From positions 1 through 14,003 of the IMG/VR virus record IMGVR_UViG_2778261067_000003: a DNA stretch of 14,003 bases. One strand, given 5' to 3'. The DNA is from a virus (taxonomy: Duplodnaviria; Heunggongvirae; Uroviricota; Caudoviricetes). Made by a program: the position numbers and the translations under genes. Positions within the stretch are counted from its first letter, which is position 1. Each line of letters starts with the position of its first letter. The notes beneath the pieces were generated by a model. That model did no database searches. It saw nothing but the letters and a program-made list of their open reading frames with translations, and was not told the origin of the DNA. Positions 1-12,992 of this stretch are shown piece after piece.

Positions 1-95
1 ACCGTCATCCCTGGTTCAAAGCTCTGCTGAACAATTGCGATCTTTTCCTGTGTGGTACGCCGTCTGCGTTTCTCCGGCCCTAAGACATCAATCAT
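1..95 (-). CDS. insC: IS2 OrfA/InsC transposase subunit, N-terminal part (partial, runs off the window)
   Basis: ATG at 93-95 on the minus strand, translating [31 protein letters not shown]..., the recalled InsC N-terminus. Open to the window edge, so it is absent from the ORF track. Confidence 0.75.
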
Positions 96-186
96 CTGTT
101 CTCCAATGACTAGTCTAAAAACTAGTATTAAGACTATCACTTATTTAAGTGATATTGGTTGTCTGGAGATTCAGGAGGCCAGTCTA
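1..186 (-). mobile_element. IS2 insertion sequence, left end (IRL plus start of orfA), continuing beyond the window edge
   Basis: Reverse complement of 186..71 reads TAGACTGGCCTCCTGAATCTCCAGACAACCAATATCACTTAAATAAGTGATAGTCTTAATACTAGTTTTTAGACTAGTCATTGGAGAACAGATGATTGATGTC..., which matches the IS2 terminus as I remember it. Not checked against ISfinder. Confidence 0.8.
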
Positions 187-435
187 ATGGCCACAGAACA
201 GGTAAAGACTTCCGGCAGGTTTCAGCACCCGCCAGAACTGCGCCAGACACTGGTCCAGCCACTTCAGGTAATCATCGTCGCCCTTCCACTGGTTATCCCA
301 GCCTTCAGGCTTCACTTTAAAGTACGGCGGGTCCGTGACTATCAGGTCAACAGAATTTTCGGGTAACGACCGGATAAATTCCAGGCAGTCGGCGTTGATT
401 AACTCACAACTGGATATTTTTACAGTATTAAGCAT
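187..435 (-). pseudogene. N6-adenine DNA methyltransferase (beta-class, DPPY motif), N-terminal 83 codons, interrupted by IS2
   Basis: Track ORF 184..435 carries ...VDLIVTDPPYF..., motif IV of amino-methyltransferases placed near the N-terminus as in beta-class enzymes. The TAG stop at 184-186 is supplied by the first bases of the IS2 terminus, and 83 aa is far short of a full enzyme. Confidence 0.7.
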
Positions 436-957: not shown

Positions 958-1671
958 TTAACGTACTCTGACAGTATTAATTTCAAAATCATTAATATTT
1001 CCGCTATTAAATATAACGAATTTCTTACCCCCACTCCTGTATGATTTCGATAACACCAGACGATCATCATAGCGCGCAATAATGTAATACCATACATTCT
1101 CATAGTGGACCGTCTGATATTCCCTCTTAAACTGTGGTTTGTACCAACCGGCAATAAGAGAGAATGCCCAGAAATAAATCATAAACCCAGCCATCATGAA
1201 CTCAATTCGGTGATGGCGAATAACAGACATTTCCGAAAAACATTTGACTGAAACAAGTCTTCTTCCAGACCTGACAAAAAGCGTGATTGCAAAGGCAGCA
1301 AGAACACAGAAAATCAGTACATCTGGCTCAACATGCTGATGAATTACAGAAAACTCCAGAACAGGTGGAATAAAAAGCAGCAATATCGCGAGAAAAAGCC
1401 GGATAAAACTCAAATTTTGTATATTGCGCTTTTGTTTTATGCCCAAAAAGAAAACAATACCAACTCCCCATCCAATAAGGAATATAACGATAACTGTCAC
1501 AGCATAAAACAAACTTCGTGCTACATCATCGACACCAGCCCCGACAACCCACCATGGAAAGCCATAGTAAAATGAAGTACCCCATCCATAGAAATAAGCG
1601 CTCCCCCATCCGAGACAGCCCATATAAGCAACAAAAAGTGAAGAGTTTCTGAGCAGAGCACTGTCATCCAT
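958..1671 (-). CDS. Multi-pass membrane protein (about 5 predicted TM segments plus a roughly 60-aa soluble C-terminus), function unknown; AT-rich moron
   Basis: 237-aa ORF with a true ATG at 1669-1671. Hydrophobic stretches such as SLFYAVTVIVIFLIGWGVGIVFFLGI and LSFIRLFLAILLLFIPPVL. The region is visibly AT-rich compared with its neighbours. No recognisable catalytic motif. Confidence 0.6.
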   Translation of the reverse strand: MDDSALLRNSSLFVAYMGCLGWGSAYFYGWGTSFYYGFPWWVVGAGVDDVARSLFYAVTVIVIFLIGWGVGIVFFLGIKQKRNIQNLSFIRLFLAILLLFIPPVLEFSVIHQHVEPDVLIFCVLAAFAITLFVRSGRRLVSVKCFSEMSVIRHHRIEFMMAGFMIYFWAFSLIAGWYKPQFKREYQTVHYENVWYYIIARYDDRLVLSKSYRSGGKKFVIFNSGNINDFEINTVRVR

Positions 1672-4008: not shown

Positions 4009-4281
4009 TTACCTCCAGATGCGTTGCTGATATGTGCGGGACGGACGCGGCGGGCGTTCGGAATAAGGGAGCCTGACGGAAATTATCCAGTGTCGGAAGT
4101 CAGGACTGAGGCCTTTCTGAAACTGGTATCCACGTCTGCGGTAATTCTGAATCAGCCACTCGGCCTGTTCTTCAGTGCATTGGTCATGCTGGTACCAGTC
4201 ATATTTGAATGCGTGAGAGCGCCGTCCGTGTCTGCTGGCAGGGTCGGCATCAGAATTGTGGTGTTTGGTATTGTGCGCCAT
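4009..4281 (-). CDS. Hypothetical nin-region protein (about 90 aa)
   Basis: Track ORF 4009..4362 starts on TTG inside the U-tract of the upstream terminator, so I place the start at the internal ATG 4279-4281 (MAHNTKHHNSDADPASRHGRRSHAFKYDWYQHDQ...). Its stop abuts the RBS of the DUF968 gene. Confidence 0.5.
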   Translation of the reverse strand: MAHNTKHHNSDADPASRHGRRSHAFKYDWYQHDQCTEEQAEWLIQNYRRRGYQFQKGLSPDFRHWIISVRLPYSERPPRPSRTYQQRIWR

Positions 4282-4352
4282 CGGTTGTCTCTGCTGGCGC
4301 AGCAGGTGCCAGTTGTTCAGGCTGGCGTGTGGATTGTAAACCAGAATGCCAG

Positions 4353-4379
4353 GAAAAAACAAAACCCGCGAAGCGGGTT
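4353..4379 (-). terminator. Rho-independent terminator closing the R-M cassette
   Basis: Stem 4363-4369 AACCCGC / 4373-4379 GCGGGTT with loop GAA; the minus-strand transcript continues UUUUGUUUUUU. It lies 70-100 bp downstream of the endonuclease stop at 4452. Confidence 0.55.
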
Positions 4380-4451
4380 AGTAAAAATGTACTGAAGTCA
4401 ATGACGTGCCATCACAGTTAAAATATGACAGACTCTATTTACGTAGAGATG

Positions 4452-5330
4452 TCAGACTGCAAGATCCAAGGGAAGATCAGAAATATCCTTTAATCTTTTA
4501 CCATTAACCATCACGGAAAGCATGTCAGCTGCATCGCTGAGCCCCAGTATTTCAACTGCTGATATAAGTTCATAAAGCGCAAAATGATACACGCAATCTA
4601 TATCACCAGTACCAAGAGCAATAGACGCCAGACGACTTGGAGTAGGCTCAGCAGTAACAACCATTACATGAGGGAGATTTCCCTTACGGTTGCGAATAAG
4701 ATTTAATGCCTCAGAACGAGCATTCTGGGCCCGGTCGCTTCTTATTGTCCATTTGCAGGAAATACTTGCGTGTAATATTGGTTTCCCACCATTCGAACTC
4801 CTGAGAGCTGACATGCGGGTAACAGAATCATCCACCAGTAATTCAGGACTGTTGATAACTTGATCACATTCAGGTTCTCTTTCAACAATAATATCTGGTG
4901 AAATCGTATAATCACTCCCCAGTGCAGCAGCTAGCTGAGGATTACTTTTTGCAGCACTATCCAATGCTATAAGATGGGCATATTGTTCATATTTAGCTAT
5001 CTCTAATCTGTTTCTACCAGAAACCTGATGTACATTCCATTTTCCAGGGCGTAAGTGGCTGAGTTTAAAAAAGGTTTTTTCTATAAACTCTGCGCAGATA
5101 CTCTCAAACTGATTACCAGATGTTTGCCCTGCAACACGTTCACCAATCGTTTCAGCCTGCAAGAAGCGAGCAATTTCTCTTGCTATAGCTTTACTGTTTT
5201 TGTTACTGCTATCTGCGTTACTAACAACTCCGGCAGTATTAATTGTGAGCGTATTCAGTAACAATTGGGCATGAAACTCCTTTCTGGCTTCAGCAAAACC
5301 AACTATGCTGTCAACCAAATCTCCATTCAT
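4452..5330 (-). CDS. Type II restriction endonuclease, NgoMIV/Cfr10I/Bse634I-like (predicted CCGG-core recognition)
   Basis: 292 aa, ATG at 5328-5330 with AAGGA RBS, 13 bp after the methyltransferase stop. PD-(D/E)XK-type signature ...SPDIIVE... (D146) and ...SCKWTIRSDRAQNARSE... (K193, E207). The D-to-K (47) and K-to-E (14) spacing matches what I recall for NgoMIV (D140/K187/E201). Confidence 0.75.
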   Translation of the reverse strand: MNGDLVDSIVGFAEARKEFHAQLLLNTLTINTAGVVSNADSSNKNSKAIAREIARFLQAETIGERVAGQTSGNQFESICAEFIEKTFFKLSHLRPGKWNVHQVSGRNRLEIAKYEQYAHLIALDSAAKSNPQLAAALGSDYTISPDIIVEREPECDQVINSPELLVDDSVTRMSALRSSNGGKPILHASISCKWTIRSDRAQNARSEALNLIRNRKGNLPHVMVVTAEPTPSRLASIALGTGDIDCVYHFALYELISAVEILGLSDAADMLSVMVNGKRLKDISDLPLDLAV

Positions 5331-5343
5331 TTCTGGATTTCCT

Positions 5344-6468
5344 TCAGGCTACTTGACTATTCTTACTGATGTTATTCTTATACCGTCCCTGCAAAACTCC
5401 ATACACATATTGTGCGATTTTTGCCGCAAATAGCGGTGGAACAGCATTCCCGATCTGCTTTGCAATCTCAGTTTTTGAACCGGTAAAAATGAAATTATCA
5501 GGAAAAGACATTAATCTCGCTGCCTCACGATGAGTTATTGGCCGATCCTCTTCCGGATGTAAATATCGCCCTTTCTCCGGTTTGAAAAACTCAGTACGAA
5601 TCGTTACTGAAGGTCTGTCCCACCACAGACGTCCAAACAAATCGGTCCCTCCAGATTTCTTTTTTAGCCAGCACGCCGGGGTTATATCAGGTCTTTTTTT
5701 CTGTAAATCGAAACGGTTACCTCCTGGTGGAACCGCTTTATATCGCTCCAGAGAAACAGGTGTGGGATTACGCCCAAAATGTAAGTTCAGCGGAGGAAGT
5801 TCATTACGAATATCAGTTCCAACAGGAGCAGGTAAGTCACCAATTGCATCACGCGTACAGACCCATTCAGGCAAAGCGACATCCTTATCAGGGGAACGAT
5901 GCGTTGGTGCTGGCGGGAACGCCGGAATACTATGCACATCGAAGAGTTCTCGTTTGATACCGATTGCTATCGTTCGTTTTCTTGTCTGAGGTACTCCATA
6001 GTCAGCAGTATTCAACACCATTGGATTAAGCAGAATAAAGCCCATGGATTTCGCTCTAAACGTAATGTCCGCAAACTCATCGCTTATCAGCAATCCGGGG
6101 ACATTTTCCATGACGAACATACAAGCCCTTGAACGCTCAATGACATCCATATAAGGCTCCCACAATGCTCTTCGGTGATCACCATAACGATTCTTATTCA
6201 ATAAACTGAATCCCTGACACGGGGGGCCACCTATGACCACATCAGCCTCAGGAACAGTATTGCTGGATGCCCACTCCTCAATATTTGCCTGAACTCCATG
6301 CAAACCAAAATTGGCATTGTAGGTATTTATAGCTGCAGCATTATTATCAATAGCAAGGATACTTTCAAAGTAGTCAGACATCTCTCCATGAAGAAAACCA
6401 TAAGATAATCCACCTGCCCCACAAAAGAGGTCTATCACTCTGAATTTATTTAATTCTTTCATCCGCAT
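5344..6468 (-). CDS. DNA cytosine-5 methyltransferase (Type II R-M modification subunit)
   Basis: 374 aa with canonical m5C motifs: I DLFCGAGGLSYGF, IV GPPCQGFS (catalytic Cys), VI ENVPGL, VIII QTRKR, X GNAVPP. ATG at 6466-6468. Confidence 0.9.
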   Translation of the reverse strand: MRMKELNKFRVIDLFCGAGGLSYGFLHGEMSDYFESILAIDNNAAAINTYNANFGLHGVQANIEEWASSNTVPEADVVIGGPPCQGFSLLNKNRYGDHRRALWEPYMDVIERSRACMFVMENVPGLLISDEFADITFRAKSMGFILLNPMVLNTADYGVPQTRKRTIAIGIKRELFDVHSIPAFPPAPTHRSPDKDVALPEWVCTRDAIGDLPAPVGTDIRNELPPLNLHFGRNPTPVSLERYKAVPPGGNRFDLQKKRPDITPACWLKKKSGGTDLFGRLWWDRPSVTIRTEFFKPEKGRYLHPEEDRPITHREAARLMSFPDNFIFTGSKTEIAKQIGNAVPPLFAAKIAQYVYGVLQGRYKNNISKNSQVA

Positions 6469-6646
6469 CCATATGCCTCAGATTAATGTTGAGCGTCTTA
6501 CAGGACGCGTAATGTTAACTGGGGCTTTCTCTATCTGCCTTTTGGTGTTCATGCCTGAGGCAGACAGCCTCAGGCACCCGCAGCAATTCTACTTAACTCA
6601 CGTCACCTCGCCAATATGAAATCAATCAGAAAGGTGATCCATAAAA

Positions 6647-7333
6647 TCACTCCTTCTCTTCTTTTCCGTAGTGGAGTTGGCCAATTTTGATAAGAGGGCG
6701 TCCCTGAGATTTGCGGTGTAGATTGGTATCGCGCAGAGAATACACACAGCCACAATATTCCTGCTGATAGAATTTTTCGCGCTTGCTGATTTCAATCATA
6801 CGGGACGAGCCGCCCTGCTTGCGCCAGTTATAATCCCAGTACACCATACCCGGATAATGCGCAACAGCTCGCCGCCCACACTCGTTAACCTGCTGCATAT
6901 TTTTCCAGCGTGAAATGCCCAGTGAACTGCTGATCACACTGAAACCATTTTCAGCAGCGTACAACGCTGTCCGCTCAAAACGCATGTCAAAACACATGGT
7001 ACAACGGATCCCCCTCTCAGGCTCCCATTCCATTCCTTTGGCACGTTCAAACCAGTTGTCGGTGTCGTAATCAGCATCGATAAACGGCACGCCGTGTTGT
7101 TCAGCAAAGCGAATATTTTCATCCTTACGAATTAAATACTCTTTCTGAGGATGAATGTTCGGGTTGTAGAAAAAGATGGTGTAGTCGATTCCCGAGGCCT
7201 GAAGCGCCTCCATCACTTCACCGGAACATGGAGCACAGCAAGAGTGCAGTAGTAGTTTGTTTGCCCCGTTTGGGAGTTCCAATTTAGGCCGTTTGAAATC
7301 AGCAATAGTCATAAATATTTTTATTGGGGTCAT
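6647..7333 (-). CDS. queH: QueH (DUF208) family protein, epoxyqueuosine reductase homolog
   Basis: 228 aa with conserved cysteine clusters [22 protein letters not shown] and EYCGCVYS, typical of QueH/DUF208. No other queuosine pathway genes are present in the window. Confidence 0.8.
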
Positions 7334-10414: not shown

Positions 10415-10840
10415 TTAGTGCATCACCACAGCATTCCCTGCCGGGCCGCCGCGATTCATCTGGTCATACAAAACAACCGCTGACGCAACAAAATCATCGA
10501 CATCCTTCACCAGCCGATCCCTCCGTTCGACGATCTCACGGTAATATTCAGAACTGTGGCTGCGCATACGGGCCACCAGCAAAGGCGGCATCGCCTTTTC
10601 GATCGCCGGTAACAGAGCCTGCATTTTTTCAACAGCATCAGGGGTGTCTTTATCCAGCCAACGGAAAATTTTCTGGGTATTACGGGCCAGGGCTTCCGGA
10701 TGGCTGTCGTCATACAGTTCCGGGAACGTCATTCCCAGCTCGAAATACGCTTTGGTAATTTTCGCAGCCGGCACTTTTTCGCCGTCCGGATGCGCCCAGA
10801 CATTCATCGCCATGCGGATGTGTTCATGCTTGATTTTCAT
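10415..10840 (-). CDS. YdaT-like protein (CII-position regulator of Rac/Qin-type prophages)
   Basis: 141 aa, ATG at 10838-10840 with GGGGGG RBS; start overlaps the stop of the Cro-like gene (ATGA). N-terminus MKIKHEHIRMAMN... matches my recollection of the YdaT family. Confidence 0.7.
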   Translation of the reverse strand: MKIKHEHIRMAMNVWAHPDGEKVPAAKITKAYFELGMTFPELYDDSHPEALARNTQKIFRWLDKDTPDAVEKMQALLPAIEKAMPPLLVARMRSHSSEYYREIVERRDRLVKDVDDFVASAVVLYDQMNRGGPAGNAVVMH

Positions 10841-12934: not shown

Positions 12935-12992
12935 TTTCTGGTGACGTTTGGCGGTATCAGTTTTACTCCGTGACTGCTCTGCCGCCCTTTTT
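12935..12992 (+). ncRNA. dicF: DicF small regulatory RNA (ftsZ-targeting sRNA of the dicB operon)
   Basis: TTTCTGGTGACGTTTGGCGGTATCAGTTTTACTCCGTGACTGCTCTGCCGCCCTTTTT matches the DicF sequence as I remember it, ends in a T-run (12988-12992), and sits between the ydfC-like and dicB genes as in Qin. Confidence 0.75.

What the first reader, a model, noticed from the sequence alone, without database searches (positions are those of the whole stretch)
4350..6646. Complete Type II R-M cassette (m5C methyltransferase plus NgoMIV-family endonuclease) inside the prophage nin region
A methyltransferase with all canonical m5C motifs is followed 13 bp later by an endonuclease whose catalytic spacing (D146, K193, E207 in PDIIV...SCKW...ARSE) matches the NgoMIV/Cfr10I/Bse634I family as I recall it. 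The pair ends in a strong terminator and sits between QueH and the DUF968/RusA/Q block, like an inserted defence or addiction module. At least one GCCGGC site is present in the phage itself (10767-10772).
Basis: partly seen in the sequence, partly recalled or inferred. Interest (0 to 1): 0.6.

Follow-up and report, generated by a model that had tools for sequence, protein, structure and literature searches.

The report
Restriction-modification cassette replacing prophage hokD toxin
An E. coli prophage carries an intact restriction enzyme and methylase pair that very probably targets GCCGGC; the pair is ordinary and already machine-annotated, but it has exactly replaced the toxin gene of a hok/sok killer locus and kept that locus's promoter, ribosome-binding site and terminator.

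Summary
On the minus strand, an m5C methyltransferase gene (5344..6468, or 6462) lies 13 bp upstream of a 292-aa endonuclease gene (4452..5330). The endonuclease is 66% identical to crystallised NgoMIV over its full length, and every published catalytic and CCGG-recognition residue is conserved. It is therefore almost certainly a G/CCGGC Type IIF enzyme. RefSeq already annotates this pair in 60 of 5,426 complete E. coli genomes.

1. The cassette (4381..6474, 2,093 bp, 43% GC) is a substitution, not a free insertion. It replaces 287 bp of a hokD/sok type I toxin-antitoxin locus. The hok promoter, about 104 nt of leader and the mok ribosome-binding site remain directly upstream of the M start.
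2. The "strong terminator" is hok's own.
3. Native copies in Cronobacter, Pantoea and another phage carry their own upstream region, which is missing here. The methyltransferase is only 22% identical to M.NgoMIV, so it belongs to a different lineage. Relatives of that lineage elsewhere pair with an HNH nuclease.

GCCGGC avoidance is not specific to this system. Expression from the hok promoter is inferred, not shown. Interest is moderate.

The parts
6586..6614 (-). hok-type sigma-70 promoter, TTGGCG-17-TAGAAT; presumed promoter of the M-R operon in the lysogen
   Evidence: Promoter scan. The identical hexamers are found in the intact hokD locus L010 and are invariant in phages HannyBb and Evi.
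6475..6579 (-). Retained 5' leader of the hok mRNA, from +1 (GGGTGCC...) to the mok Shine-Dalgarno GAGGC (GAGG = 6479..6476). It includes the complement of the Sok 3' hairpin.
   Evidence: Rfam RF01794 scores 61 bits (gathering 59), with good alignment only for model positions 1-88. The intact locus L010 scores 120.5 bits. Colinear with HannyBb, Evi and L010 up to GAGGC. This stretch is shared with 3,936 E. coli records.
4381..6474 (-). Foreign R-M cassette (2,093 bp, 42.7% GC against 51-53% in the flanks) that replaces 287 bp of mok/hokD ORFs, the Sok promoter region and the fbi element
   Evidence: Junction alignments. GC content. Present in exactly 60 of 5,426 E. coli genomes, always full-length and single-copy. 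No boundary repeats.
5344..6468 (-). m5C DNA methyltransferase gene. ATG 6468 lies 7 nt after the mok SD. ATG 6462 is the native and RefSeq start.
   Evidence: PF00145 E=4e-54 and TIGR00675. Motifs. RefSeq start. Alignment with native cassettes. dN/dS 0.044 against L004.
5331..5343 (-). 13-bp M-R spacer with an AGGA ribosome-binding site for R
   Evidence: Sequence. The same 13-14-bp spacing occurs in L004-L009.
4452..5330 (-). NgoMIV-family Type II restriction endonuclease gene; predicted to cut G/CCGGC as a tetramer
   Evidence: PF09015 E=6e-127. PDB 1fiu E=1e-118. 66% identity to gonococcal R.NgoMIV. E76, D146, K193, E207, Q69 and RSDR197-200 are conserved (PMC2532715, PMC3413111). dN/dS 0.038.
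4381..4451 (-). Cassette-derived 3' untranslated stretch of unknown origin
   Evidence: No homology to hok loci or to the other cassettes downstream of R.
4353..4380 (-). Retained hok mRNA intrinsic terminator, TAACCCGCTTCGCGGGTTTTGTTTTTTC, with one base fewer in the loop than in intact loci
   Evidence: Terminator scan. The homologous terminator is called in L010. Alignments.
10767..10772 (.). The only GCCGGC site in the window; the predicted target that must be methylated for self-protection

Best explanation
This is an intact Type II restriction-modification operon, M then R. Its endonuclease is a close homologue of NgoMIV, a tetrameric Type IIF enzyme that cuts G/CCGGC and needs two sites. 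Its m5C methyltransferase belongs to a different, Enterobacterales-wide lineage and must protect the same site. In this E. coli prophage the cassette arrived without its own upstream region. It replaced the 287 bp between the mok ribosome-binding site and the terminator hairpin of a resident hokD/sok type I toxin-antitoxin locus. The operon is therefore most likely transcribed in the lysogen from the weak constitutive hok promoter, with M translated from the mok initiation region and transcription ending at the hok terminator. Read-through from the early right operon probably adds transcription during lytic growth. The Hok toxin, the Sok promoter and Sok 5' tail, and the fbi element are gone, so the hok/sok function is lost. 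It has been exchanged for a different addiction and defence module. That module methylates host and prophage GCCGGC sites, cleaves unmethylated incoming DNA, and should kill cells that lose the prophage. SHOWN: gene identities, conserved residues, breakpoints, distribution and purifying selection. INFERRED: the promoter used, the start codon used, enzymatic activity, the methylated base, and the phenotype.
For: Endonuclease identity. The catalytic E, PD-X46-K-X13-E and RXDR residues match the published NgoMIV residues (PMC2532715; PMC3413111; positions). MTase motifs. Breakpoints: homology to the intact hok loci of phages HannyBb and Evi and of E. coli JE86-ST02 runs through promoter and leader to GAGGC (6475) and resumes at the terminator (4380). 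JE86-ST02 has the same QueH protein accession and an annotated hokD at this spot. The replaced segment is 287 bp. The Rfam hok/sok model scores 61 bits here against 120.5 in the intact locus. The Phok hexamers and terminator are called identically in both loci. Native cassettes in Cronobacter, Pantoea and phage L004 share an upstream region of about 70 bp that is absent here, and none has hok flanks. The cassette is always found with the hok flanks: the same 60 genomes appear. Purifying selection: dN/dS 0.04 for both genes. The hok promoter is weak and its mRNA stable, and R-M systems act as addiction modules (review PMC3874152).
Against: There are no expression, methylation or restriction data. 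The 60 E. coli copies are about 100% identical, so their intactness reflects recent spread, not long selection in this context. The predicted fold of the chimeric leader pairs the SD and both M start codons (z=-3.3), so translation from the mok site could be poor. No regulator (C protein) that would delay R during establishment was found. The M specificity is inferred only from partnership. A tetrameric two-site enzyme with a rare GC-rich target may give weak phage defence. Host McrBC or McrA compatibility with the new m5C mark was not examined.
Confidence: 0.72

Rival explanations
1. The cassette is a silent or decaying passenger. Cut off from its native promoter and buried behind a structured hok leader, it is expressed too little to restrict or to addict, or only M is functionally expressed as a solitary methylase.
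For: The native upstream region is lost. The predicted leader fold sequesters the SD and AUGs. The E. coli copies are too similar to each other to show selection in this context. Phok is described as weak (PMC3874152).
Against: Both ORFs are full-length in all 60 genomes across many serotypes. All catalytic and recognition residues are intact. The patch has spread between diverged prophage backbones, which is easier to explain if it is beneficial or selfishly stabilised. An expressed R without enough M would be lethal, so the balance is evidently tolerated.
Confidence: 0.15
2. The hok leader is an active regulatory input, not merely a borrowed promoter. Sok RNAs made by sibling hok/sok loci in the same genome pair with the retained leader and SD and tune M (and R) translation, or the leader confers hok-like mRNA stability that shapes post-segregational killing.
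For: About 45 nt of Sok-complementary leader, including the SD, is retained. O157 carriers have about 5 further copies of this leader region (places per record 6-7). Antisense control of R-M systems has precedent in EcoRI and Eco29kI (PMC3874152).
Against: By alignment with intact loci, the target of the Sok 5' tail (the mok start region) lies in the deleted segment. By my reading of the sequence the local Sok promoter is deleted too. No promoter is predicted on the + strand at 6300-6700. Repressing M but not R would be self-destructive. Nothing here was tested experimentally.
Confidence: 0.1
3. The hok-like flanks are native parts of the R-M cassette, which moves as a unit, so no resident hok locus was replaced.
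For: In E. coli the cassette is never seen without these flanks.
Against: None of the related cassettes in Cronobacter, Pantoea, Klebsiella-type prophages or phage L004 has any hok leader or terminator. The flanks are colinear with, and 90-95% identical to, thousands of ordinary hok loci in which a hok ORF lies between them. GC content changes at the junctions.
Confidence: 0.03

Closest known systems
NgoMIV R-M system of Neisseria gonorrhoeae (R.NgoMIV, PDB 1FIU/4ABT; Type IIF, G/CCGGC)
   Same: The endonuclease is 66% identical over 282 aligned residues and nearly the same length (292 against 286 aa). The catalytic residues E70, D140, K187 and E201 are conserved, as are Q63 and the RSDR CCGG-reading motif. 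The gene order is M then R.
   Different: The methyltransferase is not the NgoMIV one: 22% identity, 372 against 312 aa. Here the system is on a lambdoid prophage and lacks its own promoter region. Activity and the methylated base are untested.
Native M-R(NgoMIV-type) cassettes of Cronobacter, Pantoea, Klebsiella-type prophages and phage contig L004
   Same: Same two-gene architecture with a 13-14-bp spacer. R is 84-89% and M 78-85% identical. L004, L015 and L016 are also in lambdoid early or nin-like regions.
   Different: Those copies keep a conserved upstream region of about 70 bp and have no hok leader or terminator. The E. coli copy is fused to hok signals 0-2 bp from the point where homology to L004 begins (6473).
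hokD (relF)/sok type I toxin-antitoxin locus of Qin/Rac-like prophages (Rfam RF01794; hok/sok of plasmid R1)
   Same: Same position between QueH and the DUF968 gene. Same promoter hexamers, leader, mok SD and terminator.
   Different: There are no mok or hok ORFs, no fbi, and no Sok promoter or 5' tail. The Rfam score is half that of the intact locus. It cannot function as hok/sok.
Other prophage-borne Type II R-M morons in lambdoid phages (for example the PstI-like EcoGIII system of the O104:H4 Stx2 phage; recalled from memory, not checked here)
   Same: An R-M system carried as accessory cargo in the early or nin region of a temperate coliphage, expected to give defence and prophage stabilisation.
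   Different: Different enzymes and specificity. I know of no report of an R-M system substituted into a type I TA locus and using its expression signals.

Membership tests
NgoMIV-family Type II restriction endonuclease (PF09015; CCGG-family PD-(D/E)XK) | Full-length match to the family profile above the curated cut-off | tested here: met
   PF09015 at 423 bits against a cut-off of 23.2, profile positions 1-275 of 275. PADLOC REase_II E=8e-126.
NgoMIV-family Type II restriction endonuclease (PF09015; CCGG-family PD-(D/E)XK) | Catalytic motif PD-X46-53-K-X13-E plus the upstream Glu (NgoMIV E70, D140, K187, E201) | tested here: met
   E76, P145-D146, K193 (X46) and E207 (X13). Residue identities taken from PMC2532715 and PMC3413111.
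NgoMIV-family Type II restriction endonuclease (PF09015; CCGG-family PD-(D/E)XK) | RXDR motif that reads the CCGG core, and the outer G:C contacts that make the site GCCGGC rather than RCCGGY | tested here: met
   R197-S-D199-R200 is identical to NgoMIV RSDR, and Q69 corresponds to NgoMIV Q63. D40 and R233, which correspond to D34 and R227, are also conserved, but their role is recalled from memory only.
NgoMIV-family Type II restriction endonuclease (PF09015; CCGG-family PD-(D/E)XK) | Cleavage of G/CCGGC as a tetramer acting on two sites (Type IIF) | not testable with these tools
   Needs purified enzyme or in vivo restriction assays.
C5-cytosine DNA methyltransferase (PF00145) | Conserved motifs I (FxGxG), IV (PCQ), VI (ENV), VIII (QxRxR), IX (RE) and X (GNAVP), with a variable TRD between VIII and IX | tested here: met
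   FCGAGG at 15, PPCQ at 82, ENV at 121, QTRKR at 161, RE at 314 and GNAVP at 340, in 374-aa numbering. PF00145 E=4e-54 and TIGR00675 at 154 bits against a cut-off of 100.65.
M.NgoMIV orthologue (the cognate methylase of the gonococcal system) | Sequence orthology to gonococcal M.NgoMIV, including its TRD | tested here: not met
   22% identity with 20% gaps. Similarity is confined to the shared catalytic motifs.
Type II R-M operon (cognate pair) | M and R adjacent, co-oriented, and conserved as a pair across genomes | tested here: met
   13-bp spacer. The same pair occurs in L004-L009, L015 and L016. However, the M lineage at 70-75% identity pairs with an HNH nuclease in L012, L013, L014 and L017.
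Type II R-M operon (cognate pair) | M methylates the site that R cuts (GCCGGC) | not testable with these tools
   Needs bisulfite, EM-seq or nanopore 5mC calling, or an NgoMIV/NaeI digestion test on carrier DNA.
hok/sok type I toxin-antitoxin locus (RF01794) | hok mRNA leader matching the covariance model | tested here: met
   61 bits against a gathering score of 59, but only model positions 1-88 align convincingly. The intact locus scores 120.5 bits.
hok/sok type I toxin-antitoxin locus (RF01794) | Hok toxin ORF with overlapping mok, the 3' fbi element, and a Sok antisense promoter | tested here: not met
   The 287 bp that carry these in L010 are absent. No promoter is predicted on the + strand at 6300-6700.

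The most novel reading that the evidence does not exclude
The substitution created a hybrid addiction module in which a Type II R-M operon is under type I TA control logic. The M-R mRNA inherits the stability and 5' folding of the hok leader. Because it keeps about 45 nt of Sok-complementary sequence including the ribosome-binding site, its translation is modulated in trans by Sok RNAs from the other hok/sok prophages in the same cell. This would couple restriction and post-segregational killing to the cell's prophage complement.
Probability: 0.1. Interest if true: 0.65.

Novelty: new member of a known kind. Interest (0 to 1): 0.38.

Why it matters
The R-M pair itself is routine and already labelled by RefSeq. 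What is worth recording is the clean "before and after" pair: JE86-ST02 has hokD and this prophage has M-R. It shows one addiction module being swapped for another at base-pair precision, with the newcomer borrowing the resident's promoter, ribosome-binding site and terminator. It is a concrete example of how promoterless defence cargo can become expressed in a repressed prophage, and of hok/sok loci acting as landing pads. The patch has spread at about 100% identity across O157:H7, O111, O103, EPEC and commensal lineages. There it would add an m5C epigenetic mark and a barrier to DNA exchange. That matters for the genetic tractability of these strains (transformation efficiency) and for phage and plasmid flow among STEC. 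The pairing of one MTase lineage, with a conserved TRD, with two unrelated nucleases is a small but tidy case of nuclease swapping in R-M evolution.

Tried and rejected
1. GCCGGC avoidance as evidence of activity. The window has 1 site against 3.3-5.9 expected (P=0.17). The 42-kb prophage has 7 against 14-26 expected. The control palindromes GGCGCC and GCGCGC are depleted as much or more, so the signal is not specific.
2. A weak RyhB hit at 4356..4413 (24 bits, E=0.18) is just the terminator hairpin.
3. Transposon-like or site-specific insertion. There are no direct or inverted repeats at 4381 or 6474, no tRNA, and no integrase or transposase in the cassette. The junctions share at most 2-3 nt of microhomology.
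4. Plasmid or phage source. No plasmid copy is closer than about 66% nucleotide identity, and there is no copy in 50,697 GenBank phage records.
5. Controller (C) protein or other regulator. There is no further ORF or HTH domain inside the cassette.
6. Locating the Sok promoter with the scanner. It is not called even in the intact locus. Its loss here therefore rests on the alignment and on published hok/sok anatomy, together with the absence of any + strand promoter call.
7. Literature. Six full-text searches found no description of this cassette in E. coli or of R-M replacing hok. The library covers open-access papers only.
8. A 21-nt, 81% complementary inverted repeat between the transcript ends (4438-4458 and 6372-6392) is within what chance gives for this region and is not conserved in L004.
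9. Loci L002 and L003 could not be read in the sandbox, so the alignment tool was used instead.
Full report
OBSERVATION. The window's early-region genes run on the minus strand. ORF listing and translation give a 374-aa ORF at 5344..6468 and a 292-aa ORF at 4452..5330, separated by exactly 13 bp (AGGAAATCCAGAA). The first ORF is a C5-cytosine methyltransferase: PF00145 E=4e-54, and TIGR00675 at 154 bits against a cut-off of 100.65. Motifs I, IV, VI, VIII, IX and X are present. The second matches PF09015 "NgoMIV restriction enzyme" end to end (E=6e-127). It also matches the crystallised NgoMIV chain (1fiu/4abt) at E=1e-118. The neighbours are QueH (6647..7333) upstream and a 90-aa ORF, DUF968, RusA and Q downstream. 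Replication genes lie further upstream, so this is the nin-equivalent region of a Qin/Rac-like lambdoid prophage.

THE ENDONUCLEASE. Against the authentic gonococcal gene, recovered from a N. gonorrhoeae record, the protein is 66% identical over 282 residues. Published work gives the NgoMIV active site as Glu70, Asp140 and Lys187 (PMC2532715). It gives the family motif as PD-X46-53-K-X13-E, an RXDR stretch that reads CCGG, and Gln63 contacting the outer C. It describes the enzyme as a tetrameric Type IIF nuclease cutting G/CCGGC (PMC3413111). With a +6 offset the query has E76, P145-D146, K193 (X46), E207 (X13), Q69 and R197-S-D199-R200. Specificity for GCCGGC is thus strongly predicted but not demonstrated.

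THE METHYLTRANSFERASE IS NOT M.NgoMIV. The gonococcal M.NgoMIV (312 aa) and this protein share 22% identity, limited to the generic catalytic motifs. The protein belongs to a lineage common in Enterobacterales and other Gammaproteobacteria, at 70-85% identity. In Cronobacter, Pantoea, a Klebsiella-type prophage and a lambdoid phage contig (L004) this lineage is followed 13-14 bp later by an NgoMIV-family gene. At 70-75% identity, in P2-like prophages of Salmonella and Yersinia and in Cycloclasticus, it is instead followed by an overlapping 327-335-aa HNH-domain protein. The TRD region (about residues 176-300) is nearly invariant across both sets. This suggests one specificity served by two unrelated nucleases.

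WHAT THE FLANKS REALLY ARE. Rfam places the hok/sok model RF01794 at 6399..6579 on the gene strand (61 bits, gathering score 59). Only model positions 1-88 align well, ending at the mok Shine-Dalgarno GAGGC. The only part of the flagged interval shared with ordinary phages and with 3,936 E. coli records is 6475..6646. Alignment with the intact loci of phages HannyBb and Evi and of the E. coli JE86-ST02 prophage was informative. JE86-ST02 has the same QueH protein accession as strain 9000 and an annotated hokD at this position. The window is colinear through the promoter TTGGCG-17-TAGAAT (6614..6586), the transcript start (~6579) and the leader, up to GAGGC (6479..6475). It then diverges, and homology resumes exactly at the terminator hairpin TAACCCGCTTCGCGGGTTTTGTTTTTTC (4380..4353). 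The promoter and terminator are called by the scanner at homologous positions in both loci. The segment missing from the window is 287 bp. By alignment and by published hok/sok organisation (PMC3874152), it holds the mok and hokD ORFs and the Sok reverse promoter with the Sok 5' end. By my reading of the sequence it also holds the 3' fold-back element complementary to the 5' end. In its place are 2,093 bp (4381..6474) of 42.7% GC DNA, against 51-53% in the flanks. The "strong terminator" is therefore hok's. The M start codons (6468, 7 nt after GAGG; 6462, the native and RefSeq start) sit where the mok start would be.

THE CASSETTE LOST ITS OWN UPSTREAM REGION. The native copies in Cronobacter, Pantoea and L004 share a conserved stretch of about 70 bp upstream of M, which is absent here. 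Homology to L004 starts at 6473, within 2 bp of where hok homology ends. None of the other loci has any hok leader or terminator. There are no boundary repeats, tRNA genes or recombinase genes, and microhomology at the junctions is at most 2-3 nt. The event therefore looks like illegitimate recombination followed by spread through homologous recombination in the flanks.

DISTRIBUTION AND SELECTION. The 2,093-bp cassette occurs in exactly 60 of 5,426 complete E. coli genomes. It is single-copy, chromosomal and full-length, at 99.9-100% identity in 59 genomes and 97.4% in one. These are the same 60 genomes that contain the interval with its hok flanks. RefSeq annotates the genes as "DNA cytosine methyltransferase" and "NgoMIV family type II restriction endonuclease". 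The hosts include many O157:H7 isolates, O111:H8 and O111:H11, O103:H2, O39:NM, EPEC E110019 and human commensal or clinical strains. There is no close copy in the plasmid collection and no copy in the phage collection. Between this window and the O157 strain-9000 prophage, the QueH, leader, M and R stretch is 99.9-100% identical, while DUF968 is 90% and the whole colinear block 92%. This is a recently exchanged mosaic patch. Against the 79%-identical L004 copy, dN/dS is 0.044 for M and 0.038 for R. Both genes have therefore been under strong purifying selection in the lineage, although this does not prove function in the new context.

MECHANISM (INFERRED). In the lysogen the phage operons are repressed, so a promoterless moron would be silent. 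Here the weak constitutive hok promoter, whose natural transcript is long-lived (PMC3874152), is positioned to drive a leader-M-R mRNA of about 2.2 kb ending at the hok terminator. No terminator is predicted between QueH and the promoter, so early-operon read-through could add expression during lytic growth and modify progeny DNA. M would methylate GCCGGC sites, of which there are 1 in the window and 7 in 42 kb of the strain-9000 prophage. R would cut unmethylated DNA carrying two or more sites, and loss of the prophage would expose the chromosome to residual R. Two cautions apply. The predicted fold of the chimeric 5' end (a 5' hairpin, with the SD and AUG region paired; -43.7 kcal/mol, z=-3.3) might limit M translation. 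No establishment regulator was found.

CHECKS THAT DID NOT SUPPORT EXTRA CLAIMS. GCCGGC is 2-3-fold under-represented, but GGCGCC and GCGCGC are equally or more depleted. The single site at 10767 says nothing about selection by this system. Six literature searches found no report of this cassette in E. coli or of an R-M system replacing hok.

VERDICT. The R-M pair is a new, automatically annotated but unstudied member of a very well known kind. The modest novelty lies in its precise substitution for hokD and its capture of hok expression signals, and in the mixed ancestry of the pair: an NgoMIV-type R with a non-NgoMIV M whose relatives also partner with an HNH nuclease. Interest is moderate (0.38). 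The most novel surviving reading, trans-Sok or hok-leader control of an R-M system, has a probability of about 0.1.

Noticed in passing
window 1-435 (minus strand): An IS2 element has inserted into the phage N6-adenine DNA methyltransferase gene. The left end of IS2 occupies 1-186, and the TnpA N-terminus starts at ATG 95 (NF006928, E=8e-17). The MTase ORF (187-435, DPPY motif) stops after codon 83, whereas the intact gene in strain 9000 encodes 352 aa.
   Followed up: yes
L012 3588-4571; L014 1822-2829; L017 3600-4592: The same m5C-MTase lineage (69-75% identical, TRD nearly invariant) is partnered with an overlapping 327-335-aa HNH-domain nuclease instead of an NgoMIV-type enzyme. This occurs in P2-like prophages of Salmonella and Yersinia and in Cycloclasticus, and looks like a nuclease swap on one methylase. 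The HNH domain resembles that of McrA (PDB 6ghc, E=4e-9). Its specificity is unknown.
   Followed up: partly
window 958-1671 (minus strand): A 237-aa predicted multi-pass membrane protein lies in a 39-40% GC island just downstream of the Q antiterminator. It matches PHROG 1521 (unknown function) and has no Pfam or PADLOC hit. It is a candidate moron of unknown role. Strain 9000 has only a 65-aa hypothetical ORF at this position.
   Followed up: partly
window 12936-12987 (+): A DicF antisense RNA (RF00039, 76.7 bits) lies next to ydfABC/dicB-type genes. This marks the prophage as Qin/Rac-like.
   Followed up: no
window 4009-7333 against L001 19660-22963: This is a mosaic patch. QueH, the hok leader, M and R are 99.9-100% identical to the O157:H7 strain-9000 prophage and the 90-aa ORF is 97.8% identical. 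DUF968 is 90% identical, the whole colinear block is 92%, and the Q genes are of different types (223 against 273 aa).
   Followed up: partly
L004 2869-4879; L015/L016 2501-4504: Versions of the same M-R cassette that keep the native promoter region sit in other lambdoid prophages. In L004 it follows the O and P replication genes. In L015 and L016 it lies between DinI and a LexA-like gene plus DUF968. The nin-equivalent region is therefore a recurrent home for this cassette, independently of hok.
   Followed up: partly
L017 972-2398: In the Yersinia P2-like prophage, the M-HNH pair is preceded by a PvuRts1I-like/SRA-domain protein (a modified-cytosine-dependent nuclease family) and a HicB antitoxin. 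Together they form a small defence island.
   Followed up: no
window 6470-6472 (minus strand): A third ATG lies only 3 nt after the mok SD and opens an 8-codon out-of-frame ORF (MDADERIK*) that overlaps both M start codons. It could compete with, or couple to, M initiation.
   Followed up: no
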